Positions 8,416-62,400 of a DNA stretch of 64,000 bases are shown piece by piece. The translations under genes were made by a program, and so were the position numbers. The stretch is from a virus (taxonomy: Duplodnaviria; Caudoviricetes). The notes beneath the pieces were generated by a model. It was given only the letters and a program-made list of their open reading frames with translations, did no database searches and was not told the DNA's origin. The DNA is taken from positions 1,483-65,482 of the IMG/VR virus record IMGVR_UViG_3300005764_000017; one strand, 5' to 3'. Position 1 is the first letter of the stretch. The number at the start of each line of letters is the position of its first letter.

Positions 8416-8627
8416 GACCGACCGCGAGCCCGCCGCGCCAGCCGGGGACCATCACCGTCGAGCAGGCGGCCGAGCGCCTGGGCATCAGCCGGTCGGCGGC
8501 CTACCGCTGCGTGCAGCTGGGGCAGATTCCCGCCCTGCGCCTCGGGCGCTTCTGGCGGGTGCCGGTCGCGCGGCTGGAGGCGATGCTGTCGGCCGATCCG
8601 ACCCTGGGAGGGGCGGCGAGTGGCTGA
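8412..8627 (+). CDS. xis: excisionase / HTH_17 DNA-binding protein
   Basis: ITVEQAAERLGISRSAAYRCVQLGQIPALRLGRFWRVP, directly upstream of integrase. Confidence 0.85.
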   Translation: MRPTASPPRQPGTITVEQAAERLGISRSAAYRCVQLGQIPALRLGRFWRVPVARLEAMLSADPTLGGAASG

Positions 8628-10014
8628 GGGCGTCTTCCGCCGCTGCACGTGCGGCCAGCGTGTCCCCGAGGGGCTGCGCAAGTGCCCGCGGGATGGGTGC
8701 ACAGGGACCGTGAAGTGGGCGTTCGTCGTGGACATCGGGACCGTCGGCGCGCGCCGGCAGATGCACCGCAGCGGGTTCGCCACGAAGGCCGAGGCCACCG
8801 CGGGCCGCATGGCGGCGCTGACCGAGATGGGGGCCGGGACCTTCGTGGCGCCGGACCGACTCACGCTCGGCACCTACCTGGACCGCTGGCTGGCGCAGTC
8901 CAGCGCGCTCGGGTGGTCGCCGAACACGCTGCGCATCCGCCAGACCGCGGTCATGCACGCCAAGCGCCGCCTGGCCGGCGTCCCGCTGCAGCAGCTCACC
9001 CCCGACCACTTCCGCGACTTCTTTGCCTGGCTCCTCGCCGAGGGACGCCTGCGCCCCGGCGGCCGCGCCTCGGCCGGACCCATGGCGGCGCGCAGCGTCG
9101 CCTCGGTCTATGGCTCCCTGCGGGGCGCGCTCCGGCTCGCGGTGCAGGACCACAAGATCCGCACCAACGTCATCCTGGGCACCTTCAGGCCCGCCCAGGA
9201 CGGCGGCGGCAGCGAGGAGCCGCGGACGTGGTCGCTGGATGAGCTGCGCGCCTTCCTGGCCGCCCAGGACGGCTCACGGGACGCACCGCTCTGGGCGGTG
9301 GCACTGGCGACCGGGATGCGCCGCGGCGAGCTGCTGGGCCTGCGCTGGCGCGACGTCGACCTCGAGGCCGGCCGCATCGATGTGCGCCGGCAGTGGACGA
9401 TGCGGGGGGAGCGGGGCTGGGAGCAGCGGGCGCTCAAGACGGGCACCAAGGCGCTCAGGACCATCGAGGTCGACCGCCACACCATCGCCTACCTCGAGCG
9501 CCAGCGGGCCACGGTGGAGGGCGAGCAGGCCGCGTGGGGCGGCGTGTACGAGGCCACCGACCTCGTCTTCCCGCGCCAGGATGGCCGTCACCAGGACGGC
9601 TCGGAGGTCACCAAGCGCTTCAAGCGCGCGATCGCCCAGGCCGGCGGGCTGCCGGTCATCGTCTTCCACGGCACCCGGCATACCCACGCCACGCTGCTCC
9701 TGGAGGACGGCGTCAGCCTCAAGGTGGTGGCGCAGCGGCTCGGTGACCAGGAGTCCACCGTGCTCCGGACCTACAGCCACGTGCTCCCCCGCGGCCTCCA
9801 CATCGCGGCCTCACGGGTCGAGTCGTGGCTGGCCCCGGAGTCCACGGCCGTGAGCGACGAGACAGCCGAGCTGCGGGCTCAGGTGCGCGAACTCCTGGCC
9901 CGGCTCGCAGCCTACGAAGAGCAGGGCGGCCCGGCCGAAATCCGTGAGCAATCCGTGAGCGAGGTGTCGACCGGGGGCGCTTCGACGATGGAGGGAGCCG
10001 ATGTTTCGAGTTGA
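8620..10014 (+). CDS. int: tyrosine integrase
   Basis: TGMRRGELLGLRW (R), LKT (K), FHGTRHT (HxxR), RLGD, TYSH (Y); N-terminal arm-binding domain. Confidence 0.95.
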   Translation: MAEGVFRRCTCGQRVPEGLRKCPRDGCTGTVKWAFVVDIGTVGARRQMHRSGFATKAEATAGRMAALTEMGAGTFVAPDRLTLGTYLDRWLAQSSALGWSPNTLRIRQTAVMHAKRRLAGVPLQQLTPDHFRDFFAWLLAEGRLRPGGRASAGPMAARSVASVYGSLRGALRLAVQDHKIRTNVILGTFRPAQDGGGSEEPRTWSLDELRAFLAAQDGSRDAPLWAVALATGMRRGELLGLRWRDVDLEAGRIDVRRQWTMRGERGWEQRALKTGTKALRTIEVDRHTIAYLERQRATVEGEQAAWGGVYEATDLVFPRQDGRHQDGSEVTKRFKRAIAQAGGLPVIVFHGTRHTHATLLLEDGVSLKVVAQRLGDQESTVLRTYSHVLPRGLHIAASRVESWLAPESTAVSDETAELRAQVRELLARLAAYEEQGGPAEIREQSVSEVSTGGASTMEGADVSS

Positions 10015-50205: not shown

Positions 50206-50420
50206 GAGAGAAGCCCTGTTCGTTCAGGCTGCCGACCGAGCTCTACGACGAGCTGCAGCGCTCGGCCGAGGCTCACGGCGAGCCCGTCTCGGTGTTCATC
50301 CGGCGGGCCATCGAAATGCGGCTGCGGCCGGCCGCATCGATACCGTTTGTCGCTCCCGGCTGTTCCAACCTCACCTTCGGCTATCAGCCGCCGGCCGGAA
50401 TCATGGTCAACTTCCCGTGA
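50202..50420 (+). CDS. ribbon-helix-helix (CopG/Arc-like) protein
   Basis: CSFRLPTELYDELQRSAEAHGEPVSVFIRRAIE. Confidence 0.75.
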   Translation: MREKPCSFRLPTELYDELQRSAEAHGEPVSVFIRRAIEMRLRPAASIPFVAPGCSNLTFGYQPPAGIMVNFP

Positions 50421-50686
50421 CCGCTCCCCTCGACGCCCACATGCAGGCCCCGGCCGTCCTGGCCGCGCAGGACGTGCTCGACGGGCACCGCGACGGTTGC
50501 GAGGAGTGCCGGCAGGCCACGCGGGTGGTCAACGCCTGCGAGCTCGCGCGGCGGCTGCACGACGCGGTCGTGGTGGCGGCGCAGGACGCCTACCGCGAGC
50601 TGCACCCGGACCTAGCGGCCGGCGGGCCGGTCGACCCCAAGACCCTCTACATCGTCGGCGAGAACGGGCCGGAGGAGGCCGGATGA
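50417..50686 (+). CDS. hypothetical protein
   Basis: Coupled; GCEECRQA...CELARRL. Confidence 0.5.
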   Translation: MTAPLDAHMQAPAVLAAQDVLDGHRDGCEECRQATRVVNACELARRLHDAVVVAAQDAYRELHPDLAAGGPVDPKTLYIVGENGPEEAG

Positions 50687-51591
50687 CGCTCGAGCTCCGG
50701 GACATCTCCAGCTACCAGACGTGGACCGACCCGGCGGCCACCCGCGCCGCGGGCATCGCCGGCATCATCGCCAAGGCGACGGAGTCGAGCTATATCGATC
50801 CCAAGTGGTACGAGCACCGGGCCAAGATGCTGGCCGGCGGGTTCGTCCCCGGCGCCTACACGTTCAGCCGGCCGGACCTCGGCGATCCGCCCGACTGGGC
50901 GGCCGAGTTCTTCCTGAACGTCGCCAACCCGAGCAACGGATGGATCCTGGGCCACGACGCCGAGAGCGCCGGCGGCTCGCTGGCCTGGTGCGACGAGTTC
51001 GAGCTGCACTGCGCCAAGCTGCTGAGCGGCTACCACGTCTGGTTCTACAGCTACGAGTACTGGATGCAGACGCGCGGCATCGTGGGTTCCGACCTGCTCA
51101 CGCGGTCCCCGCTCTGGTTCGCCTGGCCGACATCGAACGGGGATCTCCCGTTCGCCTGCTCGATGCAGCAGTACGACGCCATCCCGACGCTGGGGTTCAC
51201 GGCGCCGGTGGACGCCAACCGCTTCTTCGGCGACATCACCCAGCTCCGCCGGCTGACCGTCGGCGGCACCACAGGAGGTGGATTCTTGGACGCCCTGACC
51301 CCCGAAGAGCAGCACCGCCTGCTCGACAAGGTCGACAACCTCTTCTCGACGATGACGACGTCGGCGAAGAACGACAACCCGCCCAGCGAGAGCCTGAACG
51401 ATGTGTGGTCGGACACGCTCGCGGCCGTGCTGGCGTTCAAGGGCGGCAGCGTCGTCGACCCGACCGGCCTGGCGGCCGGCATCGCGGCCGAGCTGCTCAA
51501 GCACCCGCTCACGACCCATCTGTCCGATGCCGACGCGCTGACCGTGGCCACCGACGTCGTGGCGGGCATCGGCAGCAAGCTGACCGGGTAG
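50683..51591 (+). CDS. endolysin, GH25 muramidase
   Basis: DISSYQ, IIAKATE, GAYTFSRP, DAES, QQYD, VDANRF. Confidence 0.85.
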   Translation: MTLELRDISSYQTWTDPAATRAAGIAGIIAKATESSYIDPKWYEHRAKMLAGGFVPGAYTFSRPDLGDPPDWAAEFFLNVANPSNGWILGHDAESAGGSLAWCDEFELHCAKLLSGYHVWFYSYEYWMQTRGIVGSDLLTRSPLWFAWPTSNGDLPFACSMQQYDAIPTLGFTAPVDANRFFGDITQLRRLTVGGTTGGGFLDALTPEEQHRLLDKVDNLFSTMTTSAKNDNPPSESLNDVWSDTLAAVLAFKGGSVVDPTGLAAGIAAELLKHPLTTHLSDADALTVATDVVAGIGSKLTG

Positions 51592-52607: not shown

Positions 52608-53393
52608 ATGCTCGTAACCAACGGCGAACTTCGCCATGTCTACCAGGAGGTCATCCGCGACGGCCTCCCCCGGTTCGGTCGCCACCATCATCTCGACGCG
52701 CGCTCGCTGGCGTACACGATCGAGGCCGAGCTGCGGCAGCTCGACGGTTCCATCCGCCCCGCCGAACACGTCTCGCCGCTGCCCGTCCTCGATCAGGGCA
52801 ACCTCGGCTCGTGCACCGGCAACGCCGGCACGTACGCCCTGGCCGCGCTCGCTGGCGCCTCAGGGCTGTCGGCGGTCCACTTGGACTACGTCAACCTGAG
52901 TCAGACCGATGCGGCCGAGGACGAGACGTTCGCGCGCGACCTGTACCACGAGGCGACGCTGCACGACGGCAGTCCGGGCCCGTGGCCGCCGAACGACCGC
53001 GGCTCGAGCGGACTCGGCGTGTGCCGGGCCCTCAAGGCGGCCGAGCTGGTTCACCGCTACACGTGGGCCATCACCCTCCGCGGCGTCGGCCACCTCCTCC
53101 AGCGCGGCGGCGTGATGCTCGGCACGCCCTGGTTCGAGGCGTGGGTCCAGCCGGATGCGGACGGGTTCGTGGACGCGGATCCGTCGTGGCGGTCCTCGCA
53201 GGTCGTCGGTGGCCACGAGATCTACCTCGAGGCCCTGGAGGCGTGGGACGACCGCGACCCGCACGCCTCGGTCGTCCGGTTCAAGAACTCGTGGGGCGAC
53301 TCGTGGGGCGACCACGGCTCGGGCCGCATGAGGCTGTCGACGTACGTCCAGCTCAAGCAGCAGATGGACGTGAAGCAGCTCGCCCATGCCTGA
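52608..53393 (+). CDS. papain-family (C1A-like) cysteine peptidase
   Basis: DQGNLGSCTGNA (Gln, Cys), GGHEI (His), FKNSWG (Asn). Confidence 0.85.
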   Translation: MLVTNGELRHVYQEVIRDGLPRFGRHHHLDARSLAYTIEAELRQLDGSIRPAEHVSPLPVLDQGNLGSCTGNAGTYALAALAGASGLSAVHLDYVNLSQTDAAEDETFARDLYHEATLHDGSPGPWPPNDRGSSGLGVCRALKAAELVHRYTWAITLRGVGHLLQRGGVMLGTPWFEAWVQPDADGFVDADPSWRSSQVVGGHEIYLEALEAWDDRDPHASVVRFKNSWGDSWGDHGSGRMRLSTYVQLKQQMDVKQLAHA

Positions 53394-54464: not shown

Positions 54465-54490
54465 CTCAGCTCGACCCTCTCTCTCACGGG

Positions 54491-54525
54491 ACCCCGTCGC
54501 CTTCGGGCGGCGGGGTTTCTTCTGT
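54491..54525 (+). terminator. intrinsic terminator closing the lysis/HicB transcript
   Basis: ACCCCGTCGCC-TTCG-GGCGGCGGGGT followed by TTCTTCTGT. Confidence 0.8.
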
Positions 54526-54543: not shown

Positions 54544-54549
54544 TATAGT
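54544..54549 (+). promoter_or_regulatory. putative -10 element for Y RNA/Ro60 unit
   Basis: TATAGT 7 nt upstream of predicted RNA 5' end at 54557; no clear -35. Confidence 0.5.
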
Positions 54550-54556
54550 CTGGCTC

Positions 54557-54638
54557 GGACGGGCCGGAAGGCCGACGGTTACCAGCTTTAGGTTGCTGTG
54601 GCGCAAGCCGCATCCGCCGGCCATGGACATGCTCGTCC
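54557..54638 (+). ncRNA. short Y RNA-like gene (YrlB-like)
   Basis: Terminal stem GGACGGG/CTCGTCC; shares CGGGCCGGA, GGTTACCA and ACATGCTCG with the next RNA; internal TGTGGC-GCAA-GCCGCA hairpin. Confidence 0.6.
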
Positions 54639-54652
54639 TTATAAAGCGAATA

Positions 54653-54790
54653 GGCGCAGCGGGCCGGATGGAACGGGGTTACCACTCTTAATGGGGTTGT
54701 CCTGGGATCGAAGCCCAGCGGCTCATCGGAGCCGTAGCTCAGTCTGGTAGAGCACCAAACGCCCTGGTCCGCTCACATGCTCGCTGCGCC
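54653..54790 (+). ncRNA. yrlA: YrlA-type Y RNA with circularly permuted tRNA-like domain
   Basis: Outer stem GGCGCAGCGGG/CTCGCTGCGCC; T arm 54702-54718, loop-closed acceptor CGGCTC-ATCG-GAGCCG 54719-54734, UA, D arm GCTC-AGTCTGGTA-GAGC 54737-54753; adjacent to Ro60. Confidence 0.85.
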
Positions 54791-54815
54791 GACCACGATC
54801 AGGGAGGCACTCATC

Positions 54816-56462
54816 GTGAAGGACTACATCCAGCACTTCGGCACGTCCACGCCGCAGGCGGCGCCCATCCCCGAAGCGCGCGGCATGGTCCGCAACCGGG
54901 CCGGCGGATTCGTCTTCGAGGCCGACGACTGGACCCGCTTCCAGCGGTTCCTCATCCTCGGCACCGACAAGGGCAGCTACTACGCTACTCCGCGCGAGTT
55001 GACGCGCGAGGCGGCGACGTGCATCGACCGGCTGCTGGAGGACGGACACGGCCTCAAGGTGGTCAACGAGATCGCCGCCGTGTCCGATTCAGGCCGGGCC
55101 CCGAAGAACGACCCGGCCATCCTGGCCCTGGCGCTGTGCCTGAAGACGGCGAGCGATGTCGAGGTCCGGCGCGCAGCCGCCACGGCCGTTCCGAAGGTCT
55201 GTCGCACCGGCTCGCATCTGGCCTCCTTCGTGACCGCCTGCCAGGGCCTCGGCGGCTGGGGTCCGCTGACGCGTCGAGCGGTCGCGGGCTGGCTCGAGTC
55301 GAAGTCGGCCGAGGACATCGCCTTCCAGGCCGTGAAGTACGGCCAGCGCCAGGACTGGCGGCTCGCCGACATGCTGCGGCTGGCCCATCCGAAGGCGCCG
55401 ACCGAGCAGCACGGTCAGGTCTACGACTGGATCCTGGAGCGCCAGCATGGCGGCAACGAGAAGTCTCCGCGTCACGGCCAGCACTCGCGTCCGGCCGCCC
55501 CGATCATCGACGCCTATGAGAGCGCCATGGGCGCAACCGGCGAGGACGCGGCGCGGCTCGCCGTCCTCGTCCGCGAGAGCCATCTGCCCTGGGAGGCGGT
55601 CCCCTCCCAGTTTGCGCGCAACCTGGCCGTGCAGGCCGCACTCTTCGAGTCCATGCCGCCGATGGCCACCATTCGCCAGCTCGGCCGGCTGACGAACCTC
55701 GGACTGCTGGCGCCGGGGTCGGAGCACGCGAAGCTTGCATGCGAACGGATCACGGACGGAGCTCGACTTGCCCGCGCCCGCGTCCACCCCATGGCGCTCT
55801 ACCTCGCCCTCCGGACCTACCAGACAGGTCGTGGCGCCAAGGGCAAGCTATCGTGGCTGCCTGTGCCCGAGATCGTCTCCGCGCTGGAGGCCGGGTTCTT
55901 CGCGGCGTTCAAGGCGCGGCCGAAGTCGCGCCAGCGGCTCGTGGTCGGCGTGGACTGCTCGGGGTCGATGTGGCAGCAGAACGTGACCGGCGGCGACATG
56001 CAGGCGGCCGAGGCGGCGTCCGTGATGGCGTTCCTCCAGGTGCGCGAGAACCCGAACGCCACGGTGCTCGCGTTCGACACCGGCATCCGCGAGGTCAGCT
56101 TCCCCCAGGTCGAAACCCTGGGGGCGGTCCAGGCCGCCTCTCGATCCTGGGGGCTCGGCGGCGGCACGAACTGTGCCCTGCCGATGATGTGGGCCATCCA
56201 GCAGCACCGGCCGGGAGTGGAGGGCTTTGTGGTCTACACCGACGACGAGGGCTGGGCCGGCAGCGTGCACCCCGTCGAAGCCGTCAGCCACTACCGGGGC
56301 CTGTTCGGCGACCGGAGCAAGTTCGTCTGCGTCAGCTTCGTTGCCCATGGCTACCGGACGGCTGGGCTGTTCGACGATGCGGGCATGCTCCAGGTGGTCG
56401 GGCTCGACGAGTCGGCCCCGGGCGTCATCGACGAGTTCCTGGCGGCGCCGATCCGCGGGTAG
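54816..56462 (+). CDS. rsr: Ro60-related RNA-binding protein (TROVE plus VWA)
   Basis: RNRAGGFVF, RFLILGTDKGSYY, AFQAVKYGQRQDW..DMLRLAHPK, ATIRQLGRL, VDCSGSM (MIDAS), YTDDE; GGGAGG RBS before GTG 54816. Confidence 0.95.
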   Translation: MKDYIQHFGTSTPQAAPIPEARGMVRNRAGGFVFEADDWTRFQRFLILGTDKGSYYATPRELTREAATCIDRLLEDGHGLKVVNEIAAVSDSGRAPKNDPAILALALCLKTASDVEVRRAAATAVPKVCRTGSHLASFVTACQGLGGWGPLTRRAVAGWLESKSAEDIAFQAVKYGQRQDWRLADMLRLAHPKAPTEQHGQVYDWILERQHGGNEKSPRHGQHSRPAAPIIDAYESAMGATGEDAARLAVLVRESHLPWEAVPSQFARNLAVQAALFESMPPMATIRQLGRLTNLGLLAPGSEHAKLACERITDGARLARARVHPMALYLALRTYQTGRGAKGKLSWLPVPEIVSALEAGFFAAFKARPKSRQRLVVGVDCSGSMWQQNVTGGDMQAAEAASVMAFLQVRENPNATVLAFDTGIREVSFPQVETLGAVQAASRSWGLGGGTNCALPMMWAIQQHRPGVEGFVVYTDDEGWAGSVHPVEAVSHYRGLFGDRSKFVCVSFVAHGYRTAGLFDDAGMLQVVGLDESAPGVIDEFLAAPIRG

Positions 56463-56572
56463 GGCGCGGGCGCCGGGATGTAGTTCCGCGCCCCCGCCTC
56501 GTGCACCAAACTCAATACCCGGTGTACTTTCGCGTAGGGAATCGGGTACTTTCCCCGGTGCTTTCCCGGGGA

Positions 56573-56836
56573 CTACTCCTCGGCCAGCGCCACCGACATC
56601 GTGTACCCGTTCCCCGGACCCCAGCACCCACAGAGGCCGGCGGCGTGCAGGGCCGCATCGAGGATGTCTCTGACCTCTTCTGGCGTCCGCGTCCAGTGAC
56701 CGTGGATGGTTACGGCGATGAGTTGCCGCTCCTTCGCGGGCCGACCCAGAGCGCGGCGCACCTCGTCGGGCGTCAGGCCCTTGCCGGCCTTGATGTCGTC
56801 GAGGGCACGGTCGAGCTCGCCGCGGTCAGGCATCAT
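56573..56836 (-). CDS. hypothetical protein
   Basis: GGAGG RBS on minus strand, overlaps upstream HTH gene. Confidence 0.5.
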   Translation of the reverse strand: MMPDRGELDRALDDIKAGKGLTPDEVRRALGRPAKERQLIAVTIHGHWTRTPEEVRDILDAALHAAGLCGCWGPGNGYTMSVALAEE

Positions 56837-57026
56837 CCTCCTTCCTCCGCTCGACCGGCGTGTACTGCTCGCGGTATCGCTTGATCTCGTCCATGTCCAC
56901 GTAGCGGTGTCGGTCACCCGGTCGGGTGTACGCCCGGATGTGGCCCTCGCTGACCCAGCGCGTGATGACGCGCCGGCTGATCTTGAGCTGCGCCGCTGCT
57001 TGATCCATGGTTCGCCAGGTCGCCAT
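56826..57026 (-). CDS. MerR/Xis-like HTH DNA-binding protein
   Basis: TMDQAAAQLKISRRVITRWVSEGHIRAY..HRYVDMDEI. Confidence 0.8.
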   Translation of the reverse strand: MATWRTMDQAAAQLKISRRVITRWVSEGHIRAYTRPGDRHRYVDMDEIKRYREQYTPVERRKEDDA

Positions 57027-57175
57027 CTCGTCGGGCGCCGAGGGTAGTTGCACTCTCCGCACATGCTAGCCGGAACCCTGCGGAAACCTCGACGGATGCT
57101 TGCCTGGCCCTAGACGGTCCCCGTCCCCTTGCGGTACCGTGGCCCTCGGACCGCCCGAGAGGCGGGACGGAGTAG

Positions 57176-58408
57176 GTGGTGAAGATGGATGGTTACGGGG
57201 TCCGTCTCCGGCAGTCCCGTGAGCGGGTCGGATGGTCGCAGCTCGACCTGGCGACGCGTGCGGGTGTGTCTCAGCGCACGGTCCAGCGAGTCGAGGCAGG
57301 CCACGACCCCAACGTCGACACCGCCGCGGCCCTGCACGCGGCGCTCGTCGGCCGGACGCCCGGTCTGAACTTCGACATGCGGATTCTGCCGGTCGGTGCT
57401 ACCGTGGGCCGCGTGAACCGCCGAGAGTTCATGGCCGTCTCGGCGATCGTTCCCGCTACACTCGCGCTCCGCATGATCGCCCACCAGCCGCAGGGCACCA
57501 CGCCTCTGCTCGACGATGCCCTGCTCGACGTCTGGGAGGCGCGCACCGAGAACTTCGCTGCCGCCCGCGCTCTGGAGCCGCCCCGGCTCCTGCTGCCGCA
57601 GATCGAGCAGCACCTCATGGTCCTGGAGTCGCTCATCGACCAGCACCCGGGTCCGGAACGCCTGGCCCAGCGGCTGTGGTCGATAGCCGCCGGCACCAAC
57701 GCCGTAGCGGCCTGGGTGAGCCTGATGGCCGAGCACCGCCGCGAGATGCGCGACTACCTCGCCCGCGGCGAGGCGCTGGCCCGTGAGGCCGGCGACAACG
57801 ACACCCTGGTTCTGCTCCTGATGCTCCGCTCCGACCTGCTCTCCCCGGTCCTGCTGGGCGGAGACGGTGGGTTCCCCGAGCAAGCCATCCGGGCGCTGGA
57901 CGAGGCGATGGCGCTGTCCTCGGATATGACGCCGCTCACGCTGCGTGTCCCGGTCATCCTGCGCGCGGCCGAGGAGCATGCGTTCGTCGGGAACGCCGCG
58001 AGCGCGCTCCGCCTGCTCGAGCTCGGCGCCGAGGCACAGGAGTCCTCGCGAATCCGCGAGCACAGCCTGCGTCGGCGCTGGCCAGCCTGGTCGTGGTCGT
58101 CCTATGCCGGGTCCGCCTACAACCTGCTGGGCCGCGCGCGCGACGCCATCGAGACCCTGCGCGACATCCGCTCGCCGTACCCGAGTCACCAACCGCTGCT
58201 CGCGGCCGACCTCGGCGCCGCACACGCGCAGGCCGGCAATCTGGACGAGGCCACCCGCTCCCTCGGCGAGGCACTCCGCCTGGCCATGGAGCACGGCTAC
58301 CCCGAGGCCGCCCGACGGGTGCAGGGAGTGCGCCGGCGGCACCTCGTGCGCTGGAGCGACGAACCGCGCGTCCGCGACCTCGACGAGGCCATCTCCGCCA
58401 TCTTGTGA
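57176..58408 (+). CDS. XRE-family regulator with C-terminal TPR-like helical domain
   Basis: LRQSRERVGWSQLDLATRAGVSQRTVQRVEAG; VNRREF linker; helical repeats. Confidence 0.85.
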   Translation: MVKMDGYGVRLRQSRERVGWSQLDLATRAGVSQRTVQRVEAGHDPNVDTAAALHAALVGRTPGLNFDMRILPVGATVGRVNRREFMAVSAIVPATLALRMIAHQPQGTTPLLDDALLDVWEARTENFAAARALEPPRLLLPQIEQHLMVLESLIDQHPGPERLAQRLWSIAAGTNAVAAWVSLMAEHRREMRDYLARGEALAREAGDNDTLVLLLMLRSDLLSPVLLGGDGGFPEQAIRALDEAMALSSDMTPLTLRVPVILRAAEEHAFVGNAASALRLLELGAEAQESSRIREHSLRRRWPAWSWSSYAGSAYNLLGRARDAIETLRDIRSPYPSHQPLLAADLGAAHAQAGNLDEATRSLGEALRLAMEHGYPEAARRVQGVRRRHLVRWSDEPRVRDLDEAISAIL

Positions 58409-61745: not shown

Positions 61746-61930
61746 GCGAGGCGAAGGTAATGCGTCTGCGGATGGCGCCTCACTTCTGCGACGGCTCCTT
61801 CGGCTACGACGGCGGTTCTCACGCCGGCGTGCGCTGGGAAACCGAGAACGGGTACACGGGCGGCTGCTCGCCCGACCACTGGCACGCATCGCCTGAGGCG
61901 GCGCTGGAGTGCTTCCGAGGAGAGACGTGA
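61742..61930 (+). CDS. hypothetical protein
   Basis: Coupled ORF; GCSPDHWH..ALEC. Confidence 0.5.
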   Translation: MSEAKVMRLRMAPHFCDGSFGYDGGSHAGVRWETENGYTGGCSPDHWHASPEAALECFRGET

Positions 61931-62400
61931 CCACCGAACCGCTCCGCATCGCCACCGAGGCGCGCGTGATCGAGTTCCGCGTCCTGGGCACCCCGCGCCC
62001 GCAGGGCTCGAAGAAGCCTGTGGGCCGCACCAAGACAGGCCGCGTCATCCTCGTCGAGTCCTCCGGCGTGCTGTTGAAGGACTGGCGGGCGGCGGTCACG
62101 TTCGCGGCCAACGCGGCGATGGCGGGCAGGGAACGCATCGCCGGGCCGGTGCTGGTGTCCGTCTGGTTCTCGTTCGCACGCCCGAAGTCGCACTACGGCG
62201 CCCGCGGCCTGCGTCCCAGCGCGCCGCGCGAGCACACACAGGTCCCCGATTTGTCCAAGCTCGCCAGGAGCCTGGAGGACGCCATGACCGACGCTGGCGT
62301 CTGGCGCGACGACAGTCAGGTGGTGCGGTACGGCGCCCTGGAGAAGCACTGGGGCGAGTGGTCGGGGGCGATCGTGCGCGTGGAGGAGCTGGCGGCGTGA
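61927..62400 (+). CDS. rusA: RusA-family Holliday junction resolvase
   Basis: VLGTPRPQGSK, FARPKSH, VPDLSKLARSLEDAMT..VWRDDSQVV. Confidence 0.9.
   Translation: MTTEPLRIATEARVIEFRVLGTPRPQGSKKPVGRTKTGRVILVESSGVLLKDWRAAVTFAANAAMAGRERIAGPVLVSVWFSFARPKSHYGARGLRPSAPREHTQVPDLSKLARSLEDAMTDAGVWRDDSQVVRYGALEKHWGEWSGAIVRVEELAA

What the first reader, a model, noticed from the sequence alone, without database searches (positions are those of the whole stretch)
54544..56462. Phage Ro60 with two tandem Y RNA genes in a self-contained transcription unit
Seen: after a strong terminator come a -10 box, two RNA genes that share the conserved stem motif CGGGCCGGA...ACATGCTCG and an internal GGTTACCA, and then an intact TROVE-VWA gene. 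RNA 2 has the YrlA order T arm, loop-closed acceptor stem, D arm. RNA 1 is a shorter sibling without the tRNA domain, recalling the Salmonella YrlA/YrlB pair. Established: bacterial Rsr binds Y RNAs, works with PNPase in RNA decay, and often lies in rtcB RNA-repair operons; some phages carry Ro/Yrl. Inference: no rtcB/rtcR is in the window, so this is a stand-alone, separately promoted module, possibly lysogen-expressed, that could protect against RNA-damaging host defences or redirect host RNA decay. The shared stem (GGGCCGGA) differs from the usual bacterial GNCGAA motif, suggesting a private Ro-RNA code.
Basis: partly seen in the sequence, partly recalled or inferred. Interest (0 to 1): 0.85.

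Follow-up and report, generated by a model that had tools for sequence, protein, structure and literature searches.

The report
Phage Ro60 with two Y RNAs
An uncultured high-GC phage carries a gene for the ring-shaped RNA-binding protein Ro60 preceded by two small partner RNAs, one of which imitates a tRNA; the reading is correct, but this arrangement is already known from mycobacteria and several phages and is common in phage DNA.

Summary
After a strong terminator (54488-54519) come a -10-like TATAGT (54544-49), an 82-nt RNA (54557-54638), a 138-nt RNA (54653-54790) and an intact Ro60 gene (TROVE + Ro60-vWA). Its real start is probably GTG 54816, not ATG 54777. RNA2 is a YrlA-type tRNA mimic: Rfam YrlA gives 45.4 bits, E 5e-9, below the cut-off of 69. 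A model built here from relatives found both RNAs and nothing else in the 64 kb.

In about 160 related Ro60 loci the same two RNA classes sit upstream on the Ro60 strand, in arrays of up to 7 copies. Covariation is strong: about 95% of cells paired against about 40% in slid controls.

The "private Ro-RNA code" is not supported. GCCGGA is the commonest form of the motif in these relatives (118 against 49 GCCGAA). It often shares a locus with GCCGAA, and it also occurs in Gordonia phage Cashline and in the nematode stem-bulge RNA consensus.

A stand-alone unit of Y RNAs plus Ro60 without rtcB is already published for M. smegmatis (Chen 2014) and Thermus phage phiLo (2025). This scan has also met phage Ro60 with Y-RNA arrays on other DNA.

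Verdict: a real, well-formed new member of a known kind, of modest interest. Expression in lysogens and any anti-defence role remain untested.

The parts
54488..54519 (+). Intrinsic terminator that closes the upstream lysis or late operon and insulates the Ro unit
   Evidence: 14-bp stem, 10 GC pairs, T-run. (z = -4.66, 0/200 shuffles fold as well).
54544..54549 (+). -10-like hexamer TATAGT. The predicted start of transcription falls at about 54556-57, the first paired base of RNA1.
   Evidence: Sequence. The same offset is the peak of TANNNT occurrence upstream of 171 related Y RNAs. No -35 was called.
54557..54638 (+). RNA1, an 82-nt short Y RNA (YrlB-like). Terminal stem GGACGGGC/GCUCGUCC, GCCGGA motif at 54563-68, GGUUACC at 54577-83, an extra GCAA-tetraloop hairpin at 54597-612, and no T or D arm.
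   Evidence: R1 hit at 35.9 bits, E 5e-7, without being in the seed. R2 gives 43.1 bits (RNA1 is in that seed). Fold. Family covariation.
54639..54652 (+). A/U-rich 14-nt spacer between the two RNAs. It is a likely processing site, and no TANNNT sits at the family's usual offset before RNA2.
   Evidence: Sequence. Processing is inferred from the M. smegmatis single precursor (PMC4201824).
54653..54790 (+). RNA2, a 138-nt YrlA-type Y RNA. It has a 12-bp terminal stem (54653-64 with 54779-90), GCCGGA at 54663-68, GGUUACC at 54677-83, T arm 54702-18, a 6-bp loop-closed acceptor-like hairpin 54719-34 and D arm 54737-53.
   Evidence: Rfam YrlA 45.4 bits, E 5.3e-9. R1 111.8 bits (RNA2 is in that seed). 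Family covariation has compensatory changes in 30 of 31 pairs. ARAGORN finds no tRNA.
54802..54807 (+). Ribosome-binding site GGGAGG, 8 nt before GTG 54816
   Evidence: Sequence. Translation from 54816 is open.
54816..56462 (+). Ro60/Rsr orthologue, 548 aa, with TROVE (HEAT-repeat ring) and Ro60-type vWA domains. The MIDAS residues D380, S382, S384, T451 and D476 are conserved.
   Evidence: Pfam. PDB 2NVO E 7e-90, 9NEN 5e-87, 1YVP 1.5e-84. Invariant columns of A1. GC3 = 0.91.

Best explanation
This is a phage-encoded Ro60 ribonucleoprotein module.

How it most likely works:
1. One promoter just after the late-operon terminator most likely drives a transcript that carries RNA1, RNA2 and the Ro60 mRNA.
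2. Host RNases release the two small RNAs.
3. Both RNAs dock on the outer face of the Ro60 ring through the shared helix GGGC(C)GGA / ACAUGCUC. This helix has the same design as the Ro-binding helix of animal Y RNAs.
4. The tRNA-shaped head of RNA2 tethers the ring to a host partner, most likely the exoribonuclease PNPase. This would make a RYPER-like machine that degrades or trims structured RNA.
5. RNA1, which lacks that head, acts as an alternative gate or adaptor.

For the phage, the particle would reshape host RNA turnover or blunt a host defence.

What is shown here: the identity of the protein, membership of both RNAs in two covariation-supported Y-RNA classes, and their fixed position and strand relative to Ro60.

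What is inferred by analogy: co-transcription and processing, Ro60 binding, the PNPase partner, and the benefit to the phage.
For: - Protein.
- RNA2: Rfam YrlA E 5e-9. The published phage YrlA of ET08 scores lower with the same model, 37.4 bits, so Rfam's cut-off is too strict for this clade.
- RNA1: found independently by R1.
- Family level: 385 R1 hits across the 160 related loci searched, all on the Ro60 strand. Motif density is 0.83/kb upstream against 0.011/kb downstream and 0.006/kb on the other strand.
- Covariation: 95.5% of cells paired against 34-42% when slid, and 30 of 31 pairs with compensatory change. For the short class, 94.3% against 37-42%, and 16 of 17 pairs.
- Within the window the outer stem and helix 2 differ between RNA1 and RNA2 but stay paired.
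- Promoter position.
- Precedents: M. smegmatis YrlA and YrlB lie upstream of rsr, come from one precursor and are independent of rtcR (PMC4201824). Thermus phage phiLo Ro60 binds Yrl1 and Yrl2 and host PNPase (PMC12135203). The Ro60-like gp130 of phage Bas63 counters the Ppl defence (10.1101/2024.10.10.617714).
- Cultured temperate Gordonia phage Cashline has two tandem YrlA-type RNAs directly upstream of its Ro gene, next to the integrase.
Against: - There are no expression, processing or binding data for this phage, and its host is unknown.
- RNA2 is below Rfam's gathering score.
- Its T loop reads AUCGAAG: A replaces the nearly invariant U at the first loop position, so the tRNA mimic may be imperfect.
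- There is no -35 box and no clear terminator after Ro60, so the limits of the transcription unit are inferred.
Confidence: 0.75

Rival explanations
1. The two structures are mainly a cis-acting 5' leader of the Ro60 mRNA, for example an autoregulatory Ro60-binding site that controls translation or stability. On this reading they are not released as stable trans-acting RNAs.
For: No terminator or recognisable promoter separates RNA2 from the Ro60 start. The RBS lies only 11 nt after the RNA2 stem.
Against: Homologous RNAs are stable, Ro-bound species in M. smegmatis and Salmonella (PMC4201824). In relatives the same RNAs occur in arrays of up to 7, up to about 1 kb or more from the gene, and sometimes downstream of it. 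That does not fit a leader. The two roles are not mutually exclusive.
Confidence: 0.1
2. The module is an orthogonal system with a private recognition code (GGGCCGGA instead of GNCGAA). This would keep the phage Ro60 and its RNAs from cross-talking with a host Rsr and its Y RNAs.
For: Both RNAs of the window carry the same G-for-A change and the same 3' ACAUGCUCG. Copies within a locus tend to share helix details.
Against: GCCGGA is the majority form across about 146 non-redundant loci. 31 of 74 multi-copy loci mix GGA and GAA before one Ro60 gene. The form also occurs in Gordonia phage Cashline and in the nematode sbRNA consensus.
Confidence: 0.04
3. RNA2 is a decayed or rearranged tRNA gene, or part of an attachment site, and the neighbouring Ro60 is coincidental.
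For: It has perfect D-arm and near-canonical T-arm sequences. Many related phage loci carry tRNA arrays nearby.
Against: The arms are in permuted order, with the acceptor closed by a loop. ARAGORN and Rfam call no tRNA. The permuted architecture is conserved with covariation in 104 relatives, always next to Ro60. The integrase lies 45 kb away.
Confidence: 0.01
4. The parts are the same, but the main role is counter-defence rather than general RNA decay. The Ro60 particle, or the tRNA-like RNA2 acting as a decoy, neutralises a host anti-phage system.
For: The Ro60-like gp130 of Bas63 counters the Ppl system (10.1101/2024.10.10.617714). The authors of the phiLo paper propose hijacking of PNPase to evade CRISPR (PMC12135203). 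Ro60 is found in 373 records of the phage collection.
Against: Nothing in the window links the unit to a specific defence, and the host and its defences are unknown. This is a variant of the best explanation, not an alternative anatomy.
Confidence: 0.2

Closest known systems
Mycobacterium smegmatis rsr locus: YrlA and YrlB upstream of Rsr (Chen et al. 2014, RNA 20:1715, PMC4201824)
   Same: Two Y RNAs lie on the same strand directly upstream of Ro60, one a tRNA mimic and one shorter. They are processed from one precursor, with no RtcR or rtcB control, in a high-GC actinobacterial setting.
   Different: The order is reversed here: the short RNA comes first and the YrlA type lies next to the gene. 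The acceptor-like stem has 6 bp rather than 7. The M. smegmatis YrlB has a possible T arm, whereas RNA1 here has a GCAA-tetraloop hairpin instead. This locus is on a phage.
Thermus phage phiLo Ro60 with Yrl1 and Yrl2 (NAR 2025, PMC12135203; PDB 9KOP, 9L5Y)
   Same: A phage Ro60 with two Y-like RNAs just upstream. Binding to Ro60 and assembly with host PNPase were shown in vitro.
   Different: The phiLo RNAs were defined by a CGAA motif and a stem-bulge-stem fold, and the paper text never uses the term 'tRNA-like'. Here RNA2 is a full YrlA-type mimic. The phage lineage and GC content differ. phiLo Ro60 was not among the PDB sequence matches at E 1e-3, so the two proteins are distant.
Ro-like RNA-binding proteins of cultured actinophages: Mycobacterium phage ET08 (Bxz1 species, genus Bixzunavirus) and Gordonia phage Cashline
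   Same: Ro60 is 35-36% identical to the Mycobacterium phage orthologues, including ET08. Cashline has two tandem YrlA-type RNAs with GGGCCGGAG directly upstream of its Ro gene. ET08 has a YrlA flanked by two short Y RNAs. Cashline is temperate, with integrase and repressor nearby.
   Different: In Cashline both RNAs are of the long type and the module lies in the integration and immunity cassette. Here it lies between the lysis cassette and a divergent HTH/XRE switch, 45 kb from the integrase. The RNAs are not annotated in those records, and ET08 gp219 overlaps them.
Salmonella Typhimurium rsr-yrlBA-rtcBA operon and Deinococcus radiodurans Rsr with Yrn1/Yrn2 (RYPER)
   Same: A Ro60 orthologue with one tRNA-like and one simpler Y RNA. 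The Y RNA tethers Ro60 to PNPase.
   Different: Salmonella's unit is sigma-54/RtcR controlled and joined to RNA-repair genes, and there is no RtcB here. Rfam's YrlA consensus reads CGAAUG, whereas this RNA reads CCGGAUG.
Nematode stem-bulge RNAs (Rfam RF01656) and vertebrate Y RNAs
   Same: The Ro-binding helix with GGNCCGRAG, the GGGUUAYC motif and the 3' CAC..ACUUG are shared. Short relatives of RNA1 pass RF01656's gathering score: 45.7, 44.7, 44.6, 53.0 bits against 38. The human Y1 and Y4 5' sequences were checked in papers.
   Different: RNA1 itself gives no RF01656 hit at E <= 10. It reads UUACC rather than UUAUC and carries an extra hairpin. The eukaryotic RNAs are polymerase III products with a role in DNA replication.

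Membership tests
Ro60 / Rsr (TROVE protein) | TROVE domain (HEAT-repeat ring) followed by a Ro60-type vWA domain | tested here: met
   PF05731 E 9.9e-31 and PF25045 E 7.2e-37, both above their curated cut-offs.
Ro60 / Rsr (TROVE protein) | Full-length similarity to structurally defined Ro60 proteins | tested here: met
   2NVO (D. radiodurans Rsr) E 7.3e-90 over residues 13-542. 9NEN E 5.2e-87. 1YVP (60-kDa SS-A/Ro, with 1YVR) E 1.5e-84.
Ro60 / Rsr (TROVE protein) | MIDAS motif DxSxS...T...D in the vWA domain | tested here: met
   D380, S382, S384, T451 and D476 are invariant in the 20-sequence alignment A1.
Ro60 / Rsr (TROVE protein) | Binds Y RNA on the outer surface of the ring | not testable with these tools
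   Needs EMSA or pull-down.
YrlA (Rfam RF02553; Chen 2014) | Score at or above Rfam's gathering cut-off (69 bits) | tested here: not met
   45.4 bits, E 5.3e-9, aligned over the whole model. The published phage member ET08 scores only 37.4 bits and Cashline 42.2. No YrlA was reported at gathering in the 20 related loci scanned. The cut-off therefore excludes this whole clade.
YrlA (Rfam RF02553; Chen 2014) | Chen 2014 working criterion: an Infernal match within 4 kb of Ro60 on the same strand | tested here: met
   RNA2 ends 25 nt before the Ro60 start codon, on the same strand.
YrlA (Rfam RF02553; Chen 2014) | Permuted tRNA-like domain: T arm, loop-closed acceptor-like stem, D arm, all carried on a long stem | tested here: met
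   cmscan and cmsearch alignments. 30 of 31 pairs show compensatory change in 104 relatives.
YrlA (Rfam RF02553; Chen 2014) | 5' motif GNCGAAN0-1G | tested here: inconclusive
   The window has GCCGGAUG and GCCGGAAG, one A-to-G change. The same change is the majority state in relatives, so the published motif is better written GNCGRA.
Short Y RNA (YrlB / Yrn2-like; model R2 built here) | Ro-binding terminal helix plus helix 2, no tRNA-like domain, adjacent to Ro60 | tested here: met
   R1 aligns RNA1 with the tRNA part deleted. The R2 family has 16 of 17 pairs with compensatory change. Chen 2014 found YrlB orthologues only in other S. enterica serovars, and I know of no curated family.
Nematode stem-bulge RNA (Rfam RF01656) | Score at or above the gathering cut-off (38 bits) | tested here: not met
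   No hit for RNA1 at E <= 10. Several short relatives in other loci do pass.
tRNA | Cloverleaf in standard order with an anticodon arm | tested here: not met
   ARAGORN finds 0 genes. Rfam gives no tRNA hit.
rsr-rtcBA RNA-repair operon | RtcB ligase encoded with Ro60 | tested here: not met
   No PF01139 match on the 65.5-kb contig. The contig is about 78% complete, so absence from the whole phage is not proven.

The most novel reading that the evidence does not exclude
RNA1 belongs to a large class of 60-100-nt phage and bacterial 'mini Y' RNAs that I did not find catalogued. Their stem, bulge, GGGUUAYC motif and 3' ACUUG match nematode stem-bulge RNAs and vertebrate Y RNAs closely enough that members pass Rfam's cut-off for RF01656. 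If so, prokaryotic or phage Y RNAs and animal Y RNAs would be directly homologous. A 2015 review (PMC4726728) calls them not homologous. The UUAUC motif tied to DNA replication in animals would then predate that role. This window would offer a compact unit in a temperate-type phage that makes a mini Y and a tRNA-mimic Y from one promoter. Another report of this scan (e1-5914499) reached the same reading on other DNA.
Probability: 0.3. Interest if true: 0.6.

Novelty: new member of a known kind. Interest (0 to 1): 0.3.

Why it matters
By itself the locus adds one more phage to a known list.

Its use is practical. It is a very compact and cleanly bounded Ro module: terminator, -10 box, an 82-nt RNA, a 138-nt RNA and the gene, all within 2 kb. 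It sits in a phage that carries an integrase. That makes it a convenient construct for asking what a phage gains from its own Ro particle, which is still an open question.

The survey made to test it also gave three wider results:
- Rfam's YrlA cut-off misses the whole actinobacterial and phage clade.
- The published GNCGAA motif should be read as GNCGRA.
- Arrays mixing mini-Y and tRNA-mimic Y RNAs are the rule upstream of Ro60 in related phage and metagenome loci.

Tried and rejected
- Rfam at gathering threshold over the whole window found nothing. The YrlA match appears only at E-value threshold.
- The sigma-70 scan found no promoter, so I used positional enrichment instead.
- The search for related loci with the single protein found nothing in viral or genome collections. 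An alignment of homologues was needed.
The DNA around the closest Ro60 relatives (P0002 80%, P0003 70%, Logan only) could therefore not be read, and close-range covariation could not be tested.
- RF01656 against RNA1 gave no hit.
- I tested whether the hairpin before the T arm (CCA-CUCUUAA-UGG) is a conserved anticodon-like loop. By MFE only 17 of 81 relatives have a 7-nt loop there, and loop lengths range from 3 to 10, so it is not a family feature.
- I tested whether the purine of GNCGRA pairs with the 3' strand. With the adjacent A/U column it mostly gives G.A or A.A. It is only associated with the next C/U column. This remains unexplained.
- The window's XRE-TPR regulator has no similarity to the Cashline immunity repressor, so it gives no argument about expression in lysogens.
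- Reviews PMC10870794 and PMC6542706 are not held.
- I considered and rejected a degenerate tRNA or attP, and chance.
Full report
**Setting.** The window is 64 kb of a 65.5-kb IMG/VR virus contig, about 78% complete, with about 70% G+C. It encodes:
- an integrase (8620-10014);
- two HK97-type capsid genes, a large terminase and a portal-MuF fusion;
- a tape-measure protein;
- a GH25 endolysin (50347-51591) and a peptidase (52608-53393);
- an XRE-TPR regulator (57176-58408), RusA (61909-62400) and a RecE-like exonuclease (1165-2403).

It is therefore a tailed phage that carries an integrase. The finding lies between the lysis genes and the regulatory or early region.

**The observation.**
- The terminator at 54488-54519 is strong.
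- TATAGT lies at 54544-49.
- RNA1 (54557-54638, 82 nt) and RNA2 (54653-54790, 138 nt) share CGGGCCGGA, GGUUACC and ACAUGCUCG, exactly 100 nt apart.
- RNA1 closes with an 8-bp stem and RNA2 with a 12-bp stem. Outside the shared core the paired bases differ between the two RNAs but stay complementary, as they do in helix 2.
- The ORF is an intact Ro60: TROVE and Ro60-vWA, full-length matches to solved Ro60/Rsr structures and an intact MIDAS motif.
- One correction: the longest ORF starts at ATG 54777, inside RNA2. GTG 54816, 8 nt after GGGAGG, is the likely start. Chen et al. 2014 noted the same annotation trap for M. smegmatis.

**Identity of the RNAs.** Rfam reports nothing at its gathering thresholds. 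At E-value threshold RNA2 matches YrlA over the whole model at 45.4 bits, E 5.3e-9, in the order T arm, closed acceptor-like hairpin, D arm. ARAGORN finds no tRNA.

I collected 160 loci that encode Ro60 relatives, 80 from IMG/VR and 80 from metagenomes. A simple 5' motif (G-Y-C-G-R, then GGTTAYC) occurs at 0.83 per kb upstream of Ro60 on its strand. It occurs at 0.011 per kb downstream and 0.006 per kb on the other strand. Loci carry 0 to 7 copies, most often 1 to 3.

I built two covariance models.
- R1 came from 15 YrlA-type sequences.
- R2 came from 23 short ones.
- R1 finds RNA2, which was in its seed, and also RNA1, which was not. RNA1 scores 35.9 bits, E 5e-7, and nothing else in the window is hit.
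- Over the 160 loci R1 gives 385 hits at E <= 1e-3, all on the Ro60 strand.
- In 104 YrlA-type matches 95.5% of cells are paired, against 34-42% when the partners are slid. Thirty of 31 pairs show compensatory change.
- In 75 matches to the short-RNA model R2 (a few of them YrlA-type RNAs) the figures are 94.3%, 37-42% and 16 of 17.

These alignments are fitted to the models, which favours pairing. The independent MAFFT/RNAalifold seeds already showed the same result: 22 of 31 and 13 of 17 pairs compensated. Both RNAs are therefore members of well-supported structured RNA classes tied to Ro60.

**The promoter.** No -35 box is present. Among 171 distinct related RNAs, TANNNT peaks at offset -11 from the model start: 14 cases, and 34 between -13 and -9, against about 1 per position elsewhere. 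The window's TATAGT sits at exactly -11. That puts the transcription start at the first paired base of RNA1.

RNA2 has no such element, and no terminator lies between it and the gene. Co-transcription followed by processing is therefore the simplest reading, as shown experimentally in M. smegmatis (PMC4201824).

The 3' boundary is open. After the stop codon come GC-rich hairpins without a T-run. A gap of about 360 nt follows, up to a small HTH gene on the other strand.

**The "private code".**
- The purine after GNCG is G in 71 of 104 long and 48 of 75 short relatives.
- GCCGGA outnumbers GCCGAA 118 to 49.
- 31 of 74 multi-copy loci have both forms before a single Ro60 gene.
- Gordonia phage Cashline, a cultured temperate phage, has two YrlA-type RNAs with GGGCCGGAG just upstream of its annotated Ro gene.
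- The Rfam consensus of nematode stem-bulge RNAs, which are Y RNA homologues (PMC4726728), reads GGUCCGGAG.

The N of GNCGRA pairs with the 3' strand without exception: C-G 87 and U-A 16 in the long class. The following C is then left unpaired and the next G pairs with C or U. This is the design of the animal Ro-binding helix. The comparison rests on my memory of the animal 3' strands. The human Y1 and Y4 5' sequences were confirmed in papers.

**What is known.**
- Chen et al. 2014 reported YrlA-like RNAs near Ro60 in 254 bacteria and 22 phages. They showed that M. smegmatis makes YrlA and YrlB from one precursor upstream of rsr, without RtcR.
- The 2025 phiLo paper showed that a phage Ro60 binds two upstream Y-like RNAs and host PNPase.
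- A Ro60-like protein of phage Bas63 counters the Ppl defence.
- In the phage collection 373 records have a Ro60 homologue, mostly annotated as "Ro-like RNA binding protein".
- ET08, the phage shown in Chen's figure, has a YrlA flanked by two short Y RNAs by my models.
- This scan has also reported phage Ro60 with Y-RNA arrays on other DNA.

The locus is therefore a new member of a known kind. Its own particulars are:
- the short RNA comes first and the YrlA type lies next to the gene;
- RNA1 carries an extra GCAA-tetraloop hairpin;
- the RNA2 T loop begins with A where relatives have U;
- the module sits after the lysis cassette.

**Side result.** Short relatives of RNA1 in other loci pass Rfam's gathering score for the nematode stem-bulge RNA family RF01656: 45.7, 44.7, 44.6, 40.4 and 53.0 bits against 38. 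The alignment covers GGNCCGGAG, UGGGUUAUC and CACCAACUUG. RNA1 itself does not hit. I saw this before looking up earlier notes, and another report of the scan (e1-5914499) says the same. No paper in the searched library mentions both YrlA and sbRNA. This is the most novel reading left open, but it concerns the family rather than this window.

**Limits.**
- There are no expression or binding data, and the host is unknown.
- The E-values of my models are rough because calibration was shortened.

Noticed in passing
window 54777-54816: The longest Ro60 ORF starts at ATG 54777, inside the 3' strand of RNA2. A gene caller would bury part of the RNA in the CDS. GTG 54816, with GGGAGG 8 nt upstream, is the likely start.
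   Followed up: yes
window 54707-54713: The T loop of RNA2 reads AUCGAAG. The first loop base, the T54 position, is A, whereas it is U in the other 14 seed sequences. This would break the T54-A58 pair of a true T loop.
   Followed up: partly
L114:109-261, L006:2916-2979, L021:2661-2729, L160:2697-2762: Short Y RNAs beside Ro60 genes in phage and metagenome loci pass the Rfam gathering score of the nematode stem-bulge RNA family RF01656. They share GGNCCGGAG, GGGUUAUC and CAC..ACUUG with it.
   Followed up: partly
L022:2715-2835, L111:2800-2920, L160:2768-2890, L009:2749-2872, L115:223-344: Rfam calls 'tRNA' genes of about 121-124 nt just upstream of Ro60 (43-48 bits). In L022, the only one I read, a roughly 50-nt insert at the anticodon position seems to carry the Ro-binding helix closed by a loop, with the acceptor end open. 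That is the opposite circular permutation to YrlA.
   Followed up: no
L083:2700-2900, L085:2715-2900, L126:1393-1526: In the closest Ro60 relatives whose DNA I could read (about 51% identity), and in L126, the tRNA-like domain has the D arm before the T arm inside the Y stem. This is a third arrangement of the same parts.
   Followed up: no
L164:2097-2446 (Mycobacterium phage ET08): The annotated CDS gp219 (locus 2297-2470) overlaps the YrlA (2195-2342) and a short Y RNA (2373-2446). It is probably a spurious ORF over RNA genes.
   Followed up: partly
window 56463-57176: A gap of about 360 nt without a convincing ORF follows Ro60. Next comes a small HTH gene on the minus strand (56826-57062, GC3 0.82, Xis/Cro-like), divergent from the XRE-TPR regulator at 57176-58408. 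This looks like the phage's genetic switch.
   Followed up: partly
alignments A5 (columns 15 and 182) and A6 (columns 13 and 154): The purine of GNCGRA is associated with the pyrimidine two positions 5' of the closing G on the 3' strand. In A5, G goes with C 55 and U 15, and A goes with U 20 and C 10 (odds ratio about 7). The two bases are not neighbours in the predicted helix. The cause could be shared descent or a contact, and it is unexplained.
   Followed up: partly
Relatives have a hairpin there, but loop length varies from 3 to 10 nt and is 7 nt in only 17 of 81.
   Followed up: partly
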